Source of the DNA: Escherichia coli
GTDB lineage: Bacteria; Pseudomonadota; Gammaproteobacteria; Enterobacterales; Enterobacteriaceae
Direction: 5' to 3' (one strand)
NCBI RefSeq assembly: GCF_003334385.1
Contig: NZ_QOWN01000093.1
Length of the DNA stretch: 3,484 nt
Part shown: positions 1 through 3,484 of the stretch, one piece after another
How positions within the stretch are numbered: the stretch's first letter is position 1
Layout of the letters: the number at the start of each line of letters is the position of its first letter
Translations under genes and position numbers: made by a program
The notes under the pieces: generated by a model
The model's input: the letters and a program-made list of their open reading frames with translations, nothing else
Database searches by the model: none
What the model was told of the DNA's origin: nothing

Positions 1-1
1 G

Positions 2-940
2 TCAGAAATATACGGCCGGCAAGGTGTGGAGCTGAGCCGTTCACTGCTGTCGGGCTGGGTGGATGCATGCTGCCGGCAGCTGTCTCCGCTGGAAGAGGCG
101 CTTCATGGCTATGTGCTGACTGACGGTAAGCTCCATGCTGATGACACGCCTATCCCGGTGCTGTTGCCAGGCAATAAGAAAACGAAGACCGGGCGGTTAT
201 GGACCTACGTTCGTGACGACCGTAACGCCGGGTCAACGCTGGCGCCGGCGGTGTGGTTCGCTTACAGCCCGGACAGAAAAGGCATCCATCCGCAGACCCA
301 TCTTGCGGGGTTCAGTGGTGTACTGCAGGCGGATGCATACGCCGGGTTCAACGAGCTGTACCGGGATGGCCGGATAACGGAAGCCGCCTGTTGGGCTCAC
401 GCCCGCCGTAAAATCCACGATGTGCACGTTCGCACCCCGTCAGCCCTGACGGAGGAAGCGCTGAAACGGATCGGCGAACTGTACGCCATCGAGGCAGAGA
501 TAAGGGGAATGACGGCGGAGCAGCGCCTTGCCGAACGTCAGTTGAAAACGAAACCGCTGCTGAAATCCCTGGAAAGCTGGCTGCGTGAAAAGATGAAAAC
601 CCTGTCGCGACACTCAGAACTGGCGAAAGCGTTCGCATACGCCCTGAACCAGTGGCCGGCGCTGACGTACTATGCAGATGATGGCTGGGCTGAGACGGAC
701 AATAACATCGCTGAAAATGCGTTGCGGATGGTCAGTCTGGGCCGCAAAAACTACCTGTTCTTCGGTTCGGATCATGGAGGAGAGCGGGGAGCGCTGCTGT
801 ACAGCCTGATCGGGACGTGCAAACTGAACGGAGTGGAGCCAGAAAGCTACCTCCGCTATGTCCTTGACGTCATAGCCGACTGGCCGATAAACCGGGTCGG
901 CGAACTGCTCCCCTGGCGCGTAGCACTGCCGACTGAATAA
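2..940 (+). CDS. IS66-family transposase (TnpC/ORF3-type), C-terminal ~312 codons; 5' end lies upstream of the window
   Basis: The frame is open from the window edge (the track's ATG at 26 is internal; no in-frame stop from nt 2) to TAA at 938-940. The translation carries motifs I recognise from IS66 transposases ([51 protein letters not shown]-terminal LPW). Codon usage is typical enterobacterial. Confidence 0.9.
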
Positions 941-977
941 CACATCCCCGTCAATACGGTTCTTGCTGCACGCTTAC
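941..977. repeat. Candidate right terminal inverted repeat region of the IS66-family element
   Basis: This is the sequence between the transposase stop and the predicted terminus; the complementary strand reads GTAAGCGTGCAGCAAGAACCGTATTGACGGGGATGTG from the end inward. The IR length cannot be confirmed without the left end. Confidence 0.4.
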
Positions 978-1164
978 CCTTCTGTTGCTCACTCAGGGCA
1001 TGTAAATCATGCTCAAACCACGCCCCCTGAGCATCTGTCTGCAGAATCAACCGGCCATGACAGGAAAGGCAGAAACAATGCCGGATATTTCTGCTGAGCG
1101 CAGAGTCGGCACTGATAATGTGCTCACCCGGCGTGATCCCCAGCCCCGTTTTTATACCGTTCAT
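978..1164 (-). pseudogene. 5' fragment (~62 native codons) of a CoiA-N-terminal-like zinc-finger gene, interrupted by the IS66 insertion
   Basis: ATG at 1164-1162 overlaps the TGA stop (1163-1161) of the upstream gene in an ATGA arrangement. The native translation MNGIKTGLGITPGEHIISADSALSRNIRHCFCLSCHGRLILQTDAQGAWFEHDLHALSEQQK repeats the C-x-x-C ... WFEH motif of the upstream paralog. From codon 63 the frame reads into IS terminal sequence, so the track's 102-aa ORF (856..1164) is a chimera. Confidence 0.5.
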
Positions 1165-1544
1165 TCTGCTACCCCCTCCTCACTGAAACGCCCGGTCTGG
1201 CAGTGTGTGCAGTACTGCTCCCCATAATAATCGTGGTGACATTGCCTGCAGTACCAGCTGGCTTTACGTACCACGGGTAAGGCATCCGGGACGAATTGCT
1301 GCAGACGTTTAATCAACCGTATTTCTCTGCGTTCCGGCCTGACATAAGGACATTGCTGCGCGTGCTCCGTCAGCCCGTCGTCAGTGTGTTCAAACCAGGG
1401 CCGTTCGGTGTCGTATTGCGGGTGGTATCTGAGTGCACTGCCGCAAAGGTGGCAGGTGTAGTGGGCATAAGGAGCAGTCTGTGCGGTACGGGCACCGATC
1501 AGACGTCCGTTGCCATCAAGTGCGAGAAAAGATTTTGCGTACAT
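1161..1544 (-). CDS. Zinc-ribbon protein, 127 aa, with CoiA-like N-terminal Cys/His motif and a C-terminal C-x2-C-x10-C-x2-C ribbon
   Basis: Intact ORF from ATG 1544-1542 with an AGGA Shine-Dalgarno-like sequence ~10 nt upstream, ending at TGA 1163-1161. The N-terminus (YTCHLCGSALRYHPQYDTERPWFEH) resembles the Y-x-C-P-x-C-G ... H-F-A-H motif I recall from competence protein CoiA. The C-terminus has CRQCHHDYYGEQYCTHC. Confidence 0.7.
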   Translation of the reverse strand: MYAKSFLALDGNGRLIGARTAQTAPYAHYTCHLCGSALRYHPQYDTERPWFEHTDDGLTEHAQQCPYVRPERREIRLIKRLQQFVPDALPVVRKASWYCRQCHHDYYGEQYCTHCQTGRFSEEGVAE

Positions 1545-1710
1545 AGTATATGTTCCTCTGCGCCAGACGACACGCAGGCAACAGCCGTCCCGGTACGGGC
1601 AGCGTGGTCAGGTGTGAATGGCGGTTTTCAGTTCAGTCTCAGAAGGGAAAATCAGTGTGGTCGCTGTGAACACGTCATCACACTAAGGTCAGATAAGTCG
1701 TCTGTCGGGC

Positions 1711-2280
1711 TCAGCCACGACTGCAGCCAAAATTGCGCTCACCGGTGCCGTAAGCTTTGGTACTCTCCTTCGCCAGATAGTCAGCACGCTCCAGCACCTG
1801 CTGAAAGCCGGTGTCATCATCGCGTTCCAGCCACACCGCCGGCCTGACCGGAAAATGTGCCAGCGTGTCATAACGTCCGGCATCCACTCCCAGGGCACTG
1901 CACCACGCCTGTTTAATCATCCCGGCCAGTGATCCCGGAGCGCGGTAATCGCCGGCACGACACCAGGTATCCCGGTTGACCAGCAGCATCAGGTGATAGT
2001 GTTTTTTACCTTTGCACTCCCCAAACTCCCGGGCCCAGACGTAATGCAGGGTTGTGGGATGCACGCGTTTACCTTCCCGATGCTTACGTTTCTGGTAAGC
2101 GTCGATTCGGGCTTTCAGGGCATTGATGAAGCGGGATATCACAGCTGCGTCCGTTGCTGCCGGTACATCCGGGAGACGCAGGTCAACCCGCAATGCCGTC
2201 AGGCGGGGATGAACATTCAGTGCGTGCCGCACCGTCTCACGAATACGTTGCTGCCAGAAGGGGTTGTATTTGTAGGTCAT
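1711..2280 (-). CDS. YagK/YfjJ-family (inovirus Gp2-like) protein, 189 aa from the ATG at 2280
   Basis: ORF ends at TGA 1713-1711. The ATG at 2280-2278 has GGAG 8 nt upstream, whereas the track's upstream ATG at 2316 has no purine-rich RBS. The translation (MTYKYNPFWQQRIRETVRHALNVHPRLTALRVDLRLPD ... HYHLMLLVNRD ... KAYGTGERNF) matches my recollection of the YagK/YfjJ family of CP4-type prophage-like elements; not verified by search. Confidence 0.75.
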   Translation of the reverse strand: MTYKYNPFWQQRIRETVRHALNVHPRLTALRVDLRLPDVPAATDAAVISRFINALKARIDAYQKRKHREGKRVHPTTLHYVWAREFGECKGKKHYHLMLLVNRDTWCRAGDYRAPGSLAGMIKQAWCSALGVDAGRYDTLAHFPVRPAVWLERDDDTGFQQVLERADYLAKESTKAYGTGERNFGCSRG

Positions 2281-2288
2281 GGTTAAAT

Positions 2289-2308
2289 CTCCGTATGGTT
2301 CATACGGA
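2289..2308 (-). promoter_or_regulatory. Ribosome-binding site overlapped by a perfect 8-bp inverted repeat (TCCGTATG-GTT-CATACGGA) upstream of the Gp2-like gene
   Basis: The arms at 2290-2297 and 2301-2308 are exact reverse complements with a 3-nt loop. The GGAG Shine-Dalgarno (complement of 2289-2292) lies in the 3' arm of the potential mRNA hairpin, 8 nt before the ATG. Confidence 0.3.
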
Positions 2309-2427
2309 ATAACCACGTCGTAAAAAATGCGCAGAACCCCTGAGGTGACCTCCGGCAGGACACTGTCTCAGGCACTCTGTGATAACCCGAACGGTCATCG
2401 CCGGACTGACGATTGAATTCCCGGCGT

Positions 2428-2449
2428 TGTTTTTTTAATGTAAAAAACA
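2428..2449. promoter_or_regulatory. AT-rich dyad (TGTTTTTT-TAATGT-AAAAAACA) in the divergent intergenic region; candidate operator or promoter element
   Basis: Perfect 8-bp inverted repeat with a 6-bp spacer, midway between the divergent Gp2-like gene and the small zinc-ribbon ORF. It overlaps -10-like hexamers (TTTAAT/TAATGT), with a TTGAAT -35-like hexamer at 2412-2417. Confidence 0.25.
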
Positions 2450-2481
2450 GGTTACGGATAAGGCGTGGAGAGGGAGCGATC

Positions 2482-2673
2482 GTGATATGCAAAAAGAAGT
2501 GCAGGGACTGTGGTAACGCAATTACTCATAATACAGTATGTTGCCCGTATTGTGGCGCTGTCGACCCCTTCGGTTATTACCGGAAGACCGATCGTCTGCT
2601 CTGTTTACTGACGTTACTGCTGCTGATTCTGGTTACCGTTTCAGGCGTCAGTGTATTTGTACTGTTGCAGTAG
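2482..2673 (+). CDS. Small zinc-ribbon membrane protein, 63 aa (GTG start): N-terminal C-x2-C-x9-CC-x2-C ribbon and C-terminal hydrophobic helix
   Basis: GTG at 2482 is preceded by GGAGAGGGAG (2467-2476) at 5-nt spacing; the track's TTG start at 2413 has no RBS. Translation: (M)ICKKKCRDCGNAITHNTVCCPYCGAVDPFGYYRKTDRLLCLLTLLLLILVTVSGVSVFVLLQ, with stop TAG at 2671-2673. The run of ~23 hydrophobic residues is consistent with one transmembrane segment. Confidence 0.5.
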   Translation: MICKKKCRDCGNAITHNTVCCPYCGAVDPFGYYRKTDRLLCLLTLLLLILVTVSGVSVFVLLQ

Positions 2674-2701
2674 GTTACAGGGGAGGGATTATCAGGAATC
2701 G

Positions 2702-2730
2702 GCGGGGCAGAGCGACCCGCTGCGTTTGTT
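2702..2730. terminator. Possible intrinsic terminator between convergent genes (GCGGG-9 nt loop-CCCGC followed by a T-rich tract)
   Basis: 5-bp GC stem at 2702-2706 / 2716-2720, followed by TGCGTTTGTTGT, ~30 nt after the small ORF stop. The stem is short and the loop long, so this is weak. Confidence 0.25.
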
Positions 2731-2785
2731 GTGCCAGACAGTAACGCACCGGCTCCCTGCAAAATGGTACCTGAATCAATCACAG

Positions 2786-2986
2786 TCAGGTATTCCGCCA
2801 ATCCGTGATCGAATCGAGCGGAATACTCAGCCCCGACAAATACGAGTCCCCTTCAGAAGATACAGGCCGGTAATGCCTGAACGCCTGCCCCTCTGTACAC
2901 CATTCCCTTTTGATTTCGAATTCTTTGTTGCCGTTATACTGCTTAATGTTCCCGATCTTCCGGTGCACAGATAACACCGGAGTCAT
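2786..2986 (-). CDS. Hypothetical 66-aa protein (low confidence), immediately downstream of the Hha-like gene
   Basis: ATG at 2986-2984 lies 19 nt after the Hha-like stop, with no clear Shine-Dalgarno. The translation MTPVLSVHRKIGNIKQYNGNKEFEIKREWCTEGQAFRHYRPVSSEGDSYLSGLSIPLDSITDWRNT has no recognisable family, and several rare codons (AGG, CGG, GGG) lower confidence. Confidence 0.25.
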   Translation of the reverse strand: MTPVLSVHRKIGNIKQYNGNKEFEIKREWCTEGQAFRHYRPVSSEGDSYLSGLSIPLDSITDWRNT

Positions 2987-3005
2987 CGTAGCGCGGATTC
3001 AAGAT

Positions 3006-3484
<479 letters not shown>

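What the first reader, a model, noticed from the sequence alone, without database searches (positions are those of the whole stretch)
978..2316. Reverse-strand operon: Gp2-like gene plus two tandem, translationally coupled CoiA-like zinc-finger paralogs
Three co-directional genes form one unit: a YagK/YfjJ (inovirus Gp2-like) gene, a 127-aa protein with two Cys4-type zinc ribbons, and a paralog that starts on an ATGA stop/start overlap. Both zinc-finger genes share the signature aromatic-x-C-x-x-C ... WFEH, which resembles the N-terminal zinc finger of competence/recombination protein CoiA but without its nuclease domain in the intact copy. A rolling-circle-initiator-like protein paired with nucleic-acid-binding zinc-finger proteins could act in element replication/maintenance or in defence against incoming DNA. 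I do not know a characterised system with this composition, so it is the best candidate here for an undescribed module; the function is pure inference.
Basis: partly seen in the sequence, partly recalled or inferred. Interest (0 to 1): 0.6.

Follow-up and report, generated by a model that had tools for sequence, protein, structure and literature searches.

The report
Island nickase plus paired zinc proteins
This is a conserved but unstudied gene block from very common E. coli genomic islands: a DNA-nicking (HUH) enzyme followed by two coupled small zinc-binding proteins, one cut short here by an insertion sequence, which probably helps the island copy or move its DNA.

Summary
On the minus strand lie a 189-aa YagK/YfjJ ("inovirus Gp2 family") gene, a 127-aa zinc protein, and a paralog that starts on an ATGA stop/start overlap. 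An IS66-family element cuts the paralog after codon 62, exactly at base 978.

The Gp2-like protein is a bona fide HUH nickase by motifs and predicted fold. Both zinc proteins are Pfam DUF7828 plus Zn_ribbon_11. The intact paralog (141 aa, e.g. E. coli Nissle 1917) has the same two domains and no nuclease. The N-terminal finger is C2HC, not Cys4. It is remotely but significantly similar to the CoiA N-terminal finger.

The arrangement is conserved across Enterobacterales. In 18 of 20 species-level loci a YagK/YfjJ-family gene (fragmentary in four) lies directly upstream on the same strand. Fourteen of 20 have two tandem zinc genes, and seven have a catalytically dead HUH paralog after them.

The block sits in the AlpA/P4-integrase island backbone. 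It is almost absent from phages, rare on plasmids, and matches no PADLOC defence model. No paper mentions these zinc-protein families.

Best reading, by inference: a DNA-processing (rolling-circle replication or mobilisation) module of the island, crippled in this window. It is catalogued by name but functionally uncharacterised, and of moderate interest.

The parts
1..977 (+). Right end of an IS66-family insertion sequence. The transposase (TnpC) C-terminal part ends at 940, and the terminal inverted repeat ends at 977 (GTAAGCGTGCAGCAAGAACCG on the minus strand). This is the element that truncates the downstream zinc-protein gene.
   Evidence: NCBIfam transpos_IS66 E=6.3e-97. RefSeq annotation of identical loci. 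Homology to the intact gene breaks at 978/977.
978..1164 (-). ZnR2: 5' remnant (62 codons) of the second DUF7828/Zn_ribbon_11 paralog. It starts on the ATGA overlap with ZnR1. It has lost the C65-equivalent ligand and the whole C-terminal Cys4 ribbon, so it is a pseudogene here. A chimeric ORF runs on into the IS to base 856.
   Evidence: The intact 141-aa form is at L006:9001-9426 in E. coli Nissle 1917. RefSeq marks it 'putative zinc ribbon protein, incomplete'.
1161..1544 (-). ZnR1: intact 127-aa two-domain zinc protein. The N-terminal domain is DUF7828, a CoiA_N-like C2HC finger (C31, C34, H53, C65; WFEH motif). The C-terminal domain is a Zn_ribbon_11 Cys4 ribbon (C99, C102, C112, C115).
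   Evidence: Pfam. Conservation. AF2 model pLDDT 83.5. dN/dS 0.10-0.35. hhalign against CoiA_N.
1545..1710 (-). Intergenic spacer between the Gp2-like gene's stop codon (1711-1713) and ZnR1, with a GAGGAA Shine-Dalgarno before the ZnR1 ATG. No terminator-like site and no significant RNA structure were found. The last ~85 nt before ZnR1 are conserved in the Nissle-type locus.
1711..2280 (-). Gp2-like / YagK-YfjJ family HUH nickase, 189 aa (stop codon 1711-1713). It carries the HUH motif H94-Y-H96 and the catalytic motif Y168-L-A-K171.
2281..2327 (-). Conserved leader of the Gp2-like gene. It has an invariant TTTTTTAC (2320-2327), then 15 nt, then an invariant TATGAAC. The TATGAAC lies inside an extended hairpin (2281-2314) that also buries the GGAG ribosome-binding site (2289-2292). 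Its role is unknown: promoter/operator, translational control, or nickase substrate.
   Evidence: Alignment of 8 loci. The pattern occurs once per locus in 14 loci and 0 times in 200 shuffles of the window. ssDNA fold z=-3.47.

Best explanation
The window carries a damaged copy of a conserved backbone module of AlpA/P4-type-integrase genomic islands of Enterobacterales.

The full module has four parts:
- an active single-tyrosine HUH nickase of the YagK/YfjJ ('Gp2-like') family;
- a pair of small paralogous zinc proteins, each with a CoiA_N-like C2HC finger plus a Cys4 ribbon; the second gene starts at or near the first gene's stop, behind a Shine-Dalgarno inside its 3' end (a 4-nt ATGA overlap in this window);
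- in many islands, a catalytically dead HUH paralog after the zinc genes.

Proposed mechanism (inferred, not shown). After excision of the island, the HUH enzyme nicks one strand at a specific site. This starts rolling-circle replication and/or single-strand or concatemer production for transfer. The two zinc proteins, probably as a 1:1 heteromer, act as accessory factors that recognise or hold the DNA substrate (hairpin, ssDNA or D-loop-like) or regulate the nickase.

In this window an IS66 insertion removed residues 63-141 of the second zinc protein and everything beyond it. The module is therefore probably non-functional here.
For: Shown:
- Domain composition of both zinc proteins and their paralogy.
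- The ATGA overlap here, and a conserved close stop/start with a GGAG-type SD in 13 of 15 junctions examined.
- Purifying selection on ZnR1.
- Synteny. In 18 of 20 species-representative loci a YagK/YfjJ-family gene (fragmentary in four, and 1.5 kb away in one) lies upstream on the same strand. Fourteen of 20 have two tandem zinc genes and 7 of 20 have a downstream HUH-less paralog. The same order is seen in Edwardsiella, Serratia, Klebsiella, Enterobacter and Salmonella, and on a 343-kb plasmid.
- All 13 aligned upstream HUH genes keep their catalytic residues, even though three or more subfamilies (14-20% identity) have been swapped in. ZnR1 stays at least 59% identical in all but one of those loci.
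- Backbone position. In Klebsiella and Enterobacter the order is alpA, orf197, HUH, ZnR, and then completely different cargo follows.
- Gp2-like proteins are reported as core genes of intY-alpA islands that excise and are transduced (paper 10.1101/2024.08.29.610337).
- int-alpA satellites replicate in rolling-circle fashion after excision (PMC10803314).
- A 5.5-kb plasmid with no typed replicon carries a distant Gp2-type protein with HYH and YLAK motifs.
- The CoiA_N similarity links the finger to a protein that acts on recombination DNA intermediates.
Against: - There is no experimental or expression evidence for any step.
- No origin or nick site has been identified. The conserved leader could simply be a promoter or operator.
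- The zinc proteins are not basic (pI 7.1 and 5.6). That is atypical for avid nucleic-acid binders and fits protein-protein roles equally well.
- The upstream HUH gene is exchangeable between very divergent subfamilies, which argues against a tight, co-evolving HUH-ZnR complex.
- K-12 yagK and yfjJ exist without any zinc gene, so the HUH protein does not need them.
- The module is rare on plasmids: 33 and 72 of 72,556 records, mostly large ones carrying island fragments. That is unexpected for a general replication module.
- Adjacency could partly reflect inherited backbone order rather than functional coupling.
Confidence: 0.4

Rival explanations
1. Regulatory module. The zinc proteins, and perhaps the dead HUH paralog, would be transcription or anti-silencing regulators of island genes. 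They would work alongside the neighbouring Hha/YmoA and AlpA regulators, and the HUH gene would merely be a neighbour.
For: The module lies between an hha-family gene and alpA in many loci. The zinc proteins are small, non-basic two-domain proteins with no enzymatic domain. A conserved hairpin-containing leader precedes the gene block and, in Nissle, directly precedes ZnR1. The HUH partner is interchangeable.
Against: There is no helix-turn-helix or other known regulator domain. The near-obligate presence of a catalytically intact HUH gene immediately upstream would be unexplained. CoiA_N is known from a DNA-processing enzyme, not from a regulator.
Confidence: 0.15
2. Anti-phage or anti-plasmid defence system. 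The zinc proteins would sense incoming DNA and the HUH nickase would cut it.
For: These islands carry defence cargo. In K-12 the paralogous yfjJ sits next to the AbpAB defence genes. A CoiA-domain protein was recovered in a functional defence screen (PMC9519451). In Klebsiella the next genes are SNF2 helicase, AAA and S8 peptidase.
Against: None of the proteins gives a PADLOC hit even at E<=1. The genes are on the conserved backbone side, and variable cargo begins after them. Defence systems are usually patchy, whereas matches to the ZnR region occur in 3801 of 5426 complete E. coli genomes, often several per genome. The CoiA similarity covers only the finger, not the nuclease domain.
Confidence: 0.12
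3. A small HUH-type transposable unit, in the manner of IS200/IS605, IS91 or REP-associated TnpA-REP. The nickase would be a Y1 transposase and the zinc proteins its accessory genes. This would explain tandem and multiple copies.
Against: No flanking subterminal hairpin pair or repeated ends were found. The T6AC...TATGAAC pattern occurs once per locus, not at both ends. Copies always sit in the same backbone position of P4-integrase/AlpA islands, so copy number follows island number.
Confidence: 0.08
4. Remnant of an integrated filamentous phage, as the RefSeq name 'inovirus Gp2 family protein' suggests.
For: Pfam REP_ORF2-G2P gives a weak partial hit (E=4e-5, 57 residues). This is the historical family name.
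Against: No other inovirus genes are nearby. The Gp2-like protein hits 1 of 50,697 phage records, an unverified low-coverage contig, and ZnR1 hits none. Only 5 loci were found in 2.9 million viral contigs. The context is always an AlpA/integrase island.
Confidence: 0.02

Closest known systems
HUH rolling-circle initiators/nickases (filamentous-phage gpII, plasmid pMV158 RepB, parvovirus NS1/AAV Rep nuclease domains, SIRV1 ORF119)
   Different: Sequence identity to the solved structures is only 9-15%, and there is no sequence-level PDB hit. It is not in a phage or a small plasmid but in a chromosomal island backbone. No helicase or oligomerisation domain is attached. It is accompanied by two zinc-finger proteins and often by a dead HUH paralog, which I know of in none of those systems (from memory, not tested). 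Nicking activity and a nick site are unknown.
E. coli K-12 YagK (CP4-6) and YfjJ (CP4-57)
   Same: Same Pfam family (YagK_YfjJ_C), and the same kind of cryptic P4-like island next to alpA/yfjI-type genes.
   Different: The K-12 genes have no DUF7828/Zn_ribbon_11 gene beside them (no HMM hit in either locus). yfjJ is followed by the convergent abpBA defence genes, and yagK by yagJ and IS1. Neither K-12 protein has a known function.
Competence protein CoiA (Firmicutes), N-terminal zinc finger (Pfam CoiA_N, PF25164)
   Same: The N-terminal ~55 residues of DUF7828 align with CoiA_N: a beta-hairpin 'F-x-A-x-D/T-x-x-G', then aromatic-x-C-x-x-C, then P-(W/H)-F-x-H, then a downstream Cys. hhalign gives 79-88% probability with E=1.7e-5 to 3e-6, and 0 of 200 shuffles reach the score. 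Pfam CoiA_N scores E=0.018 for one member.
   Different: The PD-(D/E)XK nuclease domain (PF06054) and CoiA_C (PF25166) are absent. The listed family representatives are at most 238 aa. The ligand set is C2HC rather than the C2H2 described for CoiA. A Cys4 ribbon follows instead. The taxon and context also differ: an enterobacterial island rather than a competence regulon.
Replication modules of integrase-AlpA islands and phage satellites (PICMI; Pseudomonas intY-alpA islands I23/I44/I55)
   Same: The backbone logic matches: tyrosine integrase, AlpA, and a replication-type gene, followed by defence or other cargo. Gp2-like protein is listed as a core gene of the Pseudomonas islands. PICMI replicates after excision in a rolling-circle-like manner and is packaged as concatemers.
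   Different: PICMI is not described as using an HUH protein in the passages read (no occurrence of 'HUH' in the paper). Neither paper mentions zinc-finger partners (no occurrence of 'zinc'). No helper phage or transfer has been shown for the E. coli islands carrying this block.

Membership tests
HUH endonuclease superfamily | HUH motif: two His separated by a hydrophobic residue, on a beta-strand | tested here: met
   H94-Y-H96 (HYHLMLLV). Both His are invariant in 13 homologs at 14-89% identity. They lie in strand E93-102 of the model.
HUH endonuclease superfamily | Catalytic tyrosine motif (Y-x-x-K/H) on a C-terminal helix | tested here: met
   Y168-L-A-K171. Y168 and K171 are invariant. 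They lie in helix H156-170.
HUH endonuclease superfamily | HUH nuclease fold | tested here: met
HUH endonuclease superfamily | Site-specific ssDNA nicking with a covalent 5'-phosphotyrosine intermediate | not testable with these tools
   This needs biochemistry.
Pfam YagK_YfjJ_C (PF11726; RefSeq 'inovirus Gp2 family protein') | Significant full-length match to the family HMM | tested here: met
   E=3.9e-48, model positions 1-170 of 170. PHROG 25019 E=4.5e-41.
Filamentous-phage (inovirus) replication protein gpII | Encoded in an inovirus genome next to ssDNA-binding, coat and assembly genes | tested here: not met
   The neighbours are island genes. It hits 1 unverified record among 50,697 phage records, and the zinc protein hits none. 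The match to REP_ORF2-G2P is weak and partial (E=4e-5).
Pfam DUF7828 + Zn_ribbon_11 ('putative zinc ribbon protein', DUF3279, Ybl85) | Matches to both HMMs in N-to-C order, with conserved C-x2-C...WFEH...C and C-x2-C...C-x2-C | tested here: met
   ZnR1: E=2.3e-31 and 6.3e-8. All 16 of 16 aligned members, including the intact ZnR2, match both HMMs. The ligand columns are conserved in 39-54 of 57 representatives, and the rest are mostly gaps.
Competence protein CoiA family | N-terminal CoiA_N zinc finger | tested here: inconclusive
   The profile-profile match is 79-88% probability and far above the shuffle controls. Pfam CoiA_N reaches only E=0.018, in 1 of 16 members. The ligand pattern also differs (C2HC versus C2H2).
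Competence protein CoiA family | Central PD-(D/E)XK nuclease domain (PF06054) and CoiA_C (PF25166) | tested here: not met
   The proteins end at 127 and 141 aa with no such Pfam hit. The listed representatives among 262 (out of 1.84 billion proteins searched) are at most 238 aa. True CoiA proteins of 373-405 aa carry all three domains.
Known anti-phage defence systems (PADLOC-DB v2) | Match of any component to a defence-system HMM | tested here: not met
   The Gp2-like protein, ZnR1, the ZnR2 fragment and the small divergent ORF matched 0 families at E<=1.
Translationally coupled gene pair | Stop/start overlap with a ribosome-binding site inside the upstream gene | tested here: met
   ATGA lies at 1161-1164 with GAGGAGGGGG upstream. 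A close stop/start and a GGAG-type SD are conserved in 13 of 15 junctions examined. Coupling itself was not measured.

The most novel reading that the evidence does not exclude
The HUH nickase, ZnR-A/ZnR-B pair and dead-HUH block could be the so-far unidentified replication or mobilisation engine of the very common CP4/PAI-type (P4-integrase/AlpA) islands of Enterobacterales. It would be a new kind of rolling-circle initiator complex. A heteromer of CoiA_N-like zinc proteins, relatives of the finger of a D-loop-processing nuclease, would select or present the DNA substrate. An inactive HUH paralog would modulate nicking.
Probability: 0.2. Interest if true: 0.7.

Novelty: new variant of a known kind. 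Interest (0 to 1): 0.45.

Why it matters
Islands of this type (CP4-6, CP4-44, CP4-57 and many pathogenicity and fitness islands with Ag43, YeeP-type GTPases, RadC and CbtA/CbeA) are present in most E. coli genomes. Sequence matching the zinc-gene region occurs in 3801 of 5426 complete E. coli genomes.

These islands have no recognised replication or transfer machinery, so how they persist after excision and spread between strains is poorly understood.

A conserved module built around a catalytically intact HUH nickase is an obvious candidate for that role. It is directly testable by nicking assays, circle copy number after AlpA induction, and transfer with helper phages or plasmids.

The result would also give a first functional handle on two 'domain of unknown function' families. 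In addition, it provides an independent context for the CoiA N-terminal finger, whose role in natural transformation is unknown.

Tried and rejected
- NCBIfam, PADLOC and PHROGs scans of the zinc proteins found nothing.
- A sequence search of the PDB with family profiles gave only chance ribbon hits at E>=0.2.
- Rfam found no RNA family in the window.
- The Gp2-ZnR1 spacer has no significant RNA structure (z=-0.08) and no terminator-like site.
- A repeat search found no terminal or iterated repeats that would mark an origin or transposon ends.
- Literature searches for DUF7828, DUF3279/PF11682/Zn_ribbon_11 and Ybl85 found no relevant paper. YagK and YfjJ appear only in gene lists.
- I rejected the inovirus-remnant reading.
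- I considered treating the conserved T6AC-hairpin leader as the nick site but could not distinguish that from a promoter or operator. The same leader survives in Nissle without the adjacent HUH gene, which leans towards a regulatory role.
- The 197-aa gene between alpA and the HUH gene in Klebsiella and Enterobacter has no Pfam or NCBIfam match.
- A heteromer structure prediction was not attempted, because the tool returns no interface metrics.
Full report
**What is in the window.** The 3.5-kb window is E. coli genomic-island DNA. It is 99.8% identical over 941-3484 to many complete genomes. In those genomes it lies in an island with YfjI-family, GTPase (YeeP/YfjP-type), AlpA-type HTH and Ag43 genes, next to nan genes.

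- Bases 1-977 are the right end of an IS66-family element (transposase match E=6e-97).
- On the minus strand follow a 62-codon gene fragment (978-1164), a 127-aa ORF (1161-1544) and a Gp2-like gene.
- Further right are a divergent 65-aa ORF with two CxxC pairs and a hydrophobic tail (2476-2673, plus strand) and an hha pseudogene (3006-3188, minus strand).

- Aligning the window with an uninterrupted locus shows homology ending exactly at base 978. The IS66 terminal repeat GTAAGCG... begins there.
- The fragment is 60/62 identical to the N-terminus of a 141-aa protein.
- I first reconstructed that gene across an IS21 insertion in another strain. I then found it intact and 100% identical in E. 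coli Nissle 1917. At least 80% of that 500-nt query is covered in 1337 genomes.
- The 127-aa protein (ZnR1) and the 141-aa protein (ZnR2) are true paralogs: 28% identity over 118 residues, E=5e-12.
- ZnR2's ATG overlaps ZnR1's TGA (ATGA, 1161-1164), with a GAGGAGG ribosome-binding site inside ZnR1.

Two corrections are needed:

- The Gp2-like gene most likely starts at ATG 2280 (189 aa), not at the GTG at 2316.
- ZnR1 has only seven cysteines. Conservation across 57 full-length family representatives indicates a C2HC site (C31, C34, H53, C65) plus one Cys4 ribbon (C99, C102, C112, C115), not two Cys4 ribbons.

**The zinc proteins.**

- Both are Pfam DUF7828 followed by Zn_ribbon_11 (formerly DUF3279). 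ZnR1 scores E=2.3e-31 and 6.3e-8, and all 16 aligned family members match both models.
- RefSeq calls them 'putative zinc ribbon protein' or 'DUF7828 domain-containing protein'.
- Some UniProt entries carry the misnomer 'DNA-directed RNA polymerase beta subunit' or the name Ybl85.
- The family is small and compact. It has 303 clusters at 90% identity. Only 262 representatives at 50% identity turn up among 1.84 billion proteins, and the listed ones are at most 238 aa, so no nuclease fusion was seen.
- The gene is under purifying selection (dN/dS 0.10-0.35).
- An AlphaFold model (pLDDT 83.5) shows two small beta-rich modules joined by a helix and a linker. It gave no informative structural neighbour.

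**The CoiA idea.** I tested it directly.

- Real Bacillus CoiA proteins (373-405 aa) carry CoiA_N, the PD-(D/E)XK CoiA domain and CoiA_C.
- A profile of their first ~80 residues aligns with the DUF7828 profile over 52-56 columns. The alignment runs from the N-terminal 'F-x-A-x-D-x-x-G' hairpin through C-x-x-C to P(W/H)F-x-H.
- The probability is 79-88% with E=1.7e-5 to 3e-6. Two hundred column-shuffled controls scored 11.3 +/- 2.2 (maximum 19.9) against 36.8 for the real pair.
- Pfam's CoiA_N model reaches E=0.018 for one member.

The resemblance is therefore real at the level of the finger domain. The nuclease and C-terminal domains that define CoiA are absent, so these proteins are not CoiA family members. 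CoiA's finger is described only as a putative C2H2 motif of unknown role.

**The Gp2-like protein.**

- It matches YagK_YfjJ_C end to end (E=3.9e-48). It matches the phage and CRESS-virus Rep model only weakly.
- Thirteen homologs taken from directly upstream of zinc genes are 14-89% identical to it. They share invariant R31, D33, W82, E85, H94, H96, W126, Y168 and K171, which are the HUH and Y-x-x-K motifs.

It is thus a catalytically competent-looking single-tyrosine HUH enzyme. It is not a filamentous-phage remnant. It hits one unverified record among 50,697 phage genomes, ZnR1 hits none, and only five of 2.9 million viral contigs carry a ZnR relative.

**Conservation of the arrangement.** I scanned every fetched locus with HMMs for both families.

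- Among the 20 loci returned from one-genome-per-species GTDB contigs, 17 are labelled Enterobacterales (one of them a MAG). The other three are short MAG contigs, two of them labelled Collinsella or Bacillota and probably mis-binned.
- In 18 of the 20, a YagK/YfjJ-family gene lies upstream on the same strand. It is fragmentary in four and 1.5 kb away in one. The two exceptions contain only fragments of a zinc gene.
- Fourteen have two tandem zinc genes.
- Seven have a further YagK-like gene directly downstream. It has lost both HUH histidines and the YxxK motif, making it a 'dead' paralog. The same gene is seen in Nissle, Salmonella and a 343-kb Klebsiella plasmid.
- The second zinc gene comes in two alternative paralog types. 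It generally starts at or near the stop of the first, behind a GGAG-type site (13 of 15 junctions examined).
- In Klebsiella and Enterobacter the order is alpA, orf197, HUH, ZnR. Unrelated cargo follows: SNF2/AAA/S8 peptidase in one and an ars operon in the other. That places the block on the conserved backbone at the edge of the cargo region.
- The association is asymmetric. K-12 yagK and yfjJ have no zinc gene.
- The HUH gene upstream of ZnR1 has been swapped among at least three subfamilies that are only 14-20% identical. ZnR1 itself stays at least 59% identical in all but one of these loci.

**Interpretation.** The composition and conservation are shown. The function is inferred.

The best-supported reading is a DNA-processing module of the island, meaning nicking for rolling-circle replication and/or transfer after AlpA/integrase-driven excision. 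The coupled zinc proteins would be accessory factors and the dead HUH paralog a possible modulator.

Literature context supports this. Gp2-like proteins are named as core genes of intY-alpA islands that excise and are transduced. Small int-alpA satellites replicate in a rolling-circle-like way after excision.

Several points count against a strong claim:

- No nick site or origin is identified.
- The zinc proteins are neutral to acidic (pI 7.1 and 5.6).
- The HUH partner is interchangeable.
- The block is rare on plasmids.

Defence is not excluded but has no positive support here. A regulatory role is the most serious rival.

In this particular window the module is broken. IS66 removed the C-terminal 79 residues of ZnR2 and whatever lay beyond it.

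**Novelty and verdict.** The families are catalogued and the genes are annotated in thousands of genomes, so nothing here is a new sequence. I found no paper on the zinc-protein families and no description of their linkage to an HUH nickase. The full-text searches cover open-access papers and bioRxiv only. I rate it a new variant of a known kind, namely an HUH-based DNA-processing module of a mobile element with an unprecedented pair of CoiA_N-like zinc partners. Interest is moderate (0.45). It is a solid and cheaply testable lead into how very common enterobacterial islands handle their DNA, not a demonstrated new system.

Noticed in passing
window 2281-2327 (minus strand); also L006:8325-8375 and L006:8446-8453: A conserved leader lies upstream of the Gp2-like gene: an invariant TTTTTTAC, 15 nt, then an invariant TATGAAC. 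The TATGAAC sits inside a hairpin that buries the ribosome-binding site. It is kept even where flanking sequence has diverged (Superficieibacter, Tenebrionibacter, Siccibacter). In Nissle 1917 the same leader and ATG survive without the gene body: a 27-codon ORF follows, then a second TTTTTTAC, directly upstream of ZnR1. It could be a promoter/operator, a translational switch, or the nickase substrate.
   Followed up: partly
L006:9898-10464, L016:6852-7391, L047:9151-9717, L007:2737-3279: A second YagK/YfjJ-like gene (Pfam UCP030791/YagK_YfjJ_C) directly follows the zinc-gene pair in many loci. It has lost both HUH histidines and the YxxK tyrosine motif, so it appears to be a catalytically dead paralog. 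In the window this position was lost to the IS66 insertion.
   Followed up: partly
window 2476-2673 (plus strand): A 65-aa ORF runs divergent from the Gp2-like gene. It has CxxC...CxxC followed by a hydrophobic, probably transmembrane, tail. RefSeq annotates it as hypothetical, it is conserved in E. coli and Edwardsiella loci, and it gives only weak PHROG hits of unknown function (best E=5e-5).
   Followed up: partly
window 3006-3188 (minus strand): An hha/ymoA-family gene (NCBIfam Hha E=5.6e-28) lacks a start codon and is a pseudogene here. An hha-family gene, intact or pseudogenised, sits at the same position in the related E. coli and Edwardsiella island loci examined.
   Followed up: partly
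L004:4830-6796, L005:5993-6961, window 1-977, L001:3059-8000: The zinc-gene pair is repeatedly hit by different insertion sequences: IS66 here (two tandem IS66 copies in L001), IS21 inside ZnR2 in strain A20, and IS110 between the two genes in another strain. This suggests either an insertion hot spot or relaxed selection on the second gene in E. coli.
   Followed up: no
L009:6609-12387 (Klebsiella): Immediately downstream of the single zinc gene lies a cargo trio: an SNF2/DEAD helicase (949 aa), an AAA ATPase, and a Y4kK-N/S8 peptidase protein. It looks like a defence-type system, but I did not check it.
   Followed up: no
L046 (plasmid NZ_CP056377.1, 5525 bp), gene 3577-4239: A small non-mobilisable Klebsiella plasmid with no typed replicon encodes a distant Gp2-type protein (27% identity). 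It retains HYH and YLAK motifs and is a possible natural example of this family acting as a plasmid Rep.
   Followed up: partly
L024, L025, P0040; UniProt names: Short MAG contigs labelled Collinsella, Bacillota and Veillonella carry genes with up to 86-89% identity to the E. coli ones (the Veillonella protein P0040 is a 197-aa fusion, 50% identical overall), probably through mis-binning. Several UniProt entries for DUF7828 proteins are mis-named 'DNA-directed RNA polymerase, beta subunit/140 kD subunit'.
   Followed up: no
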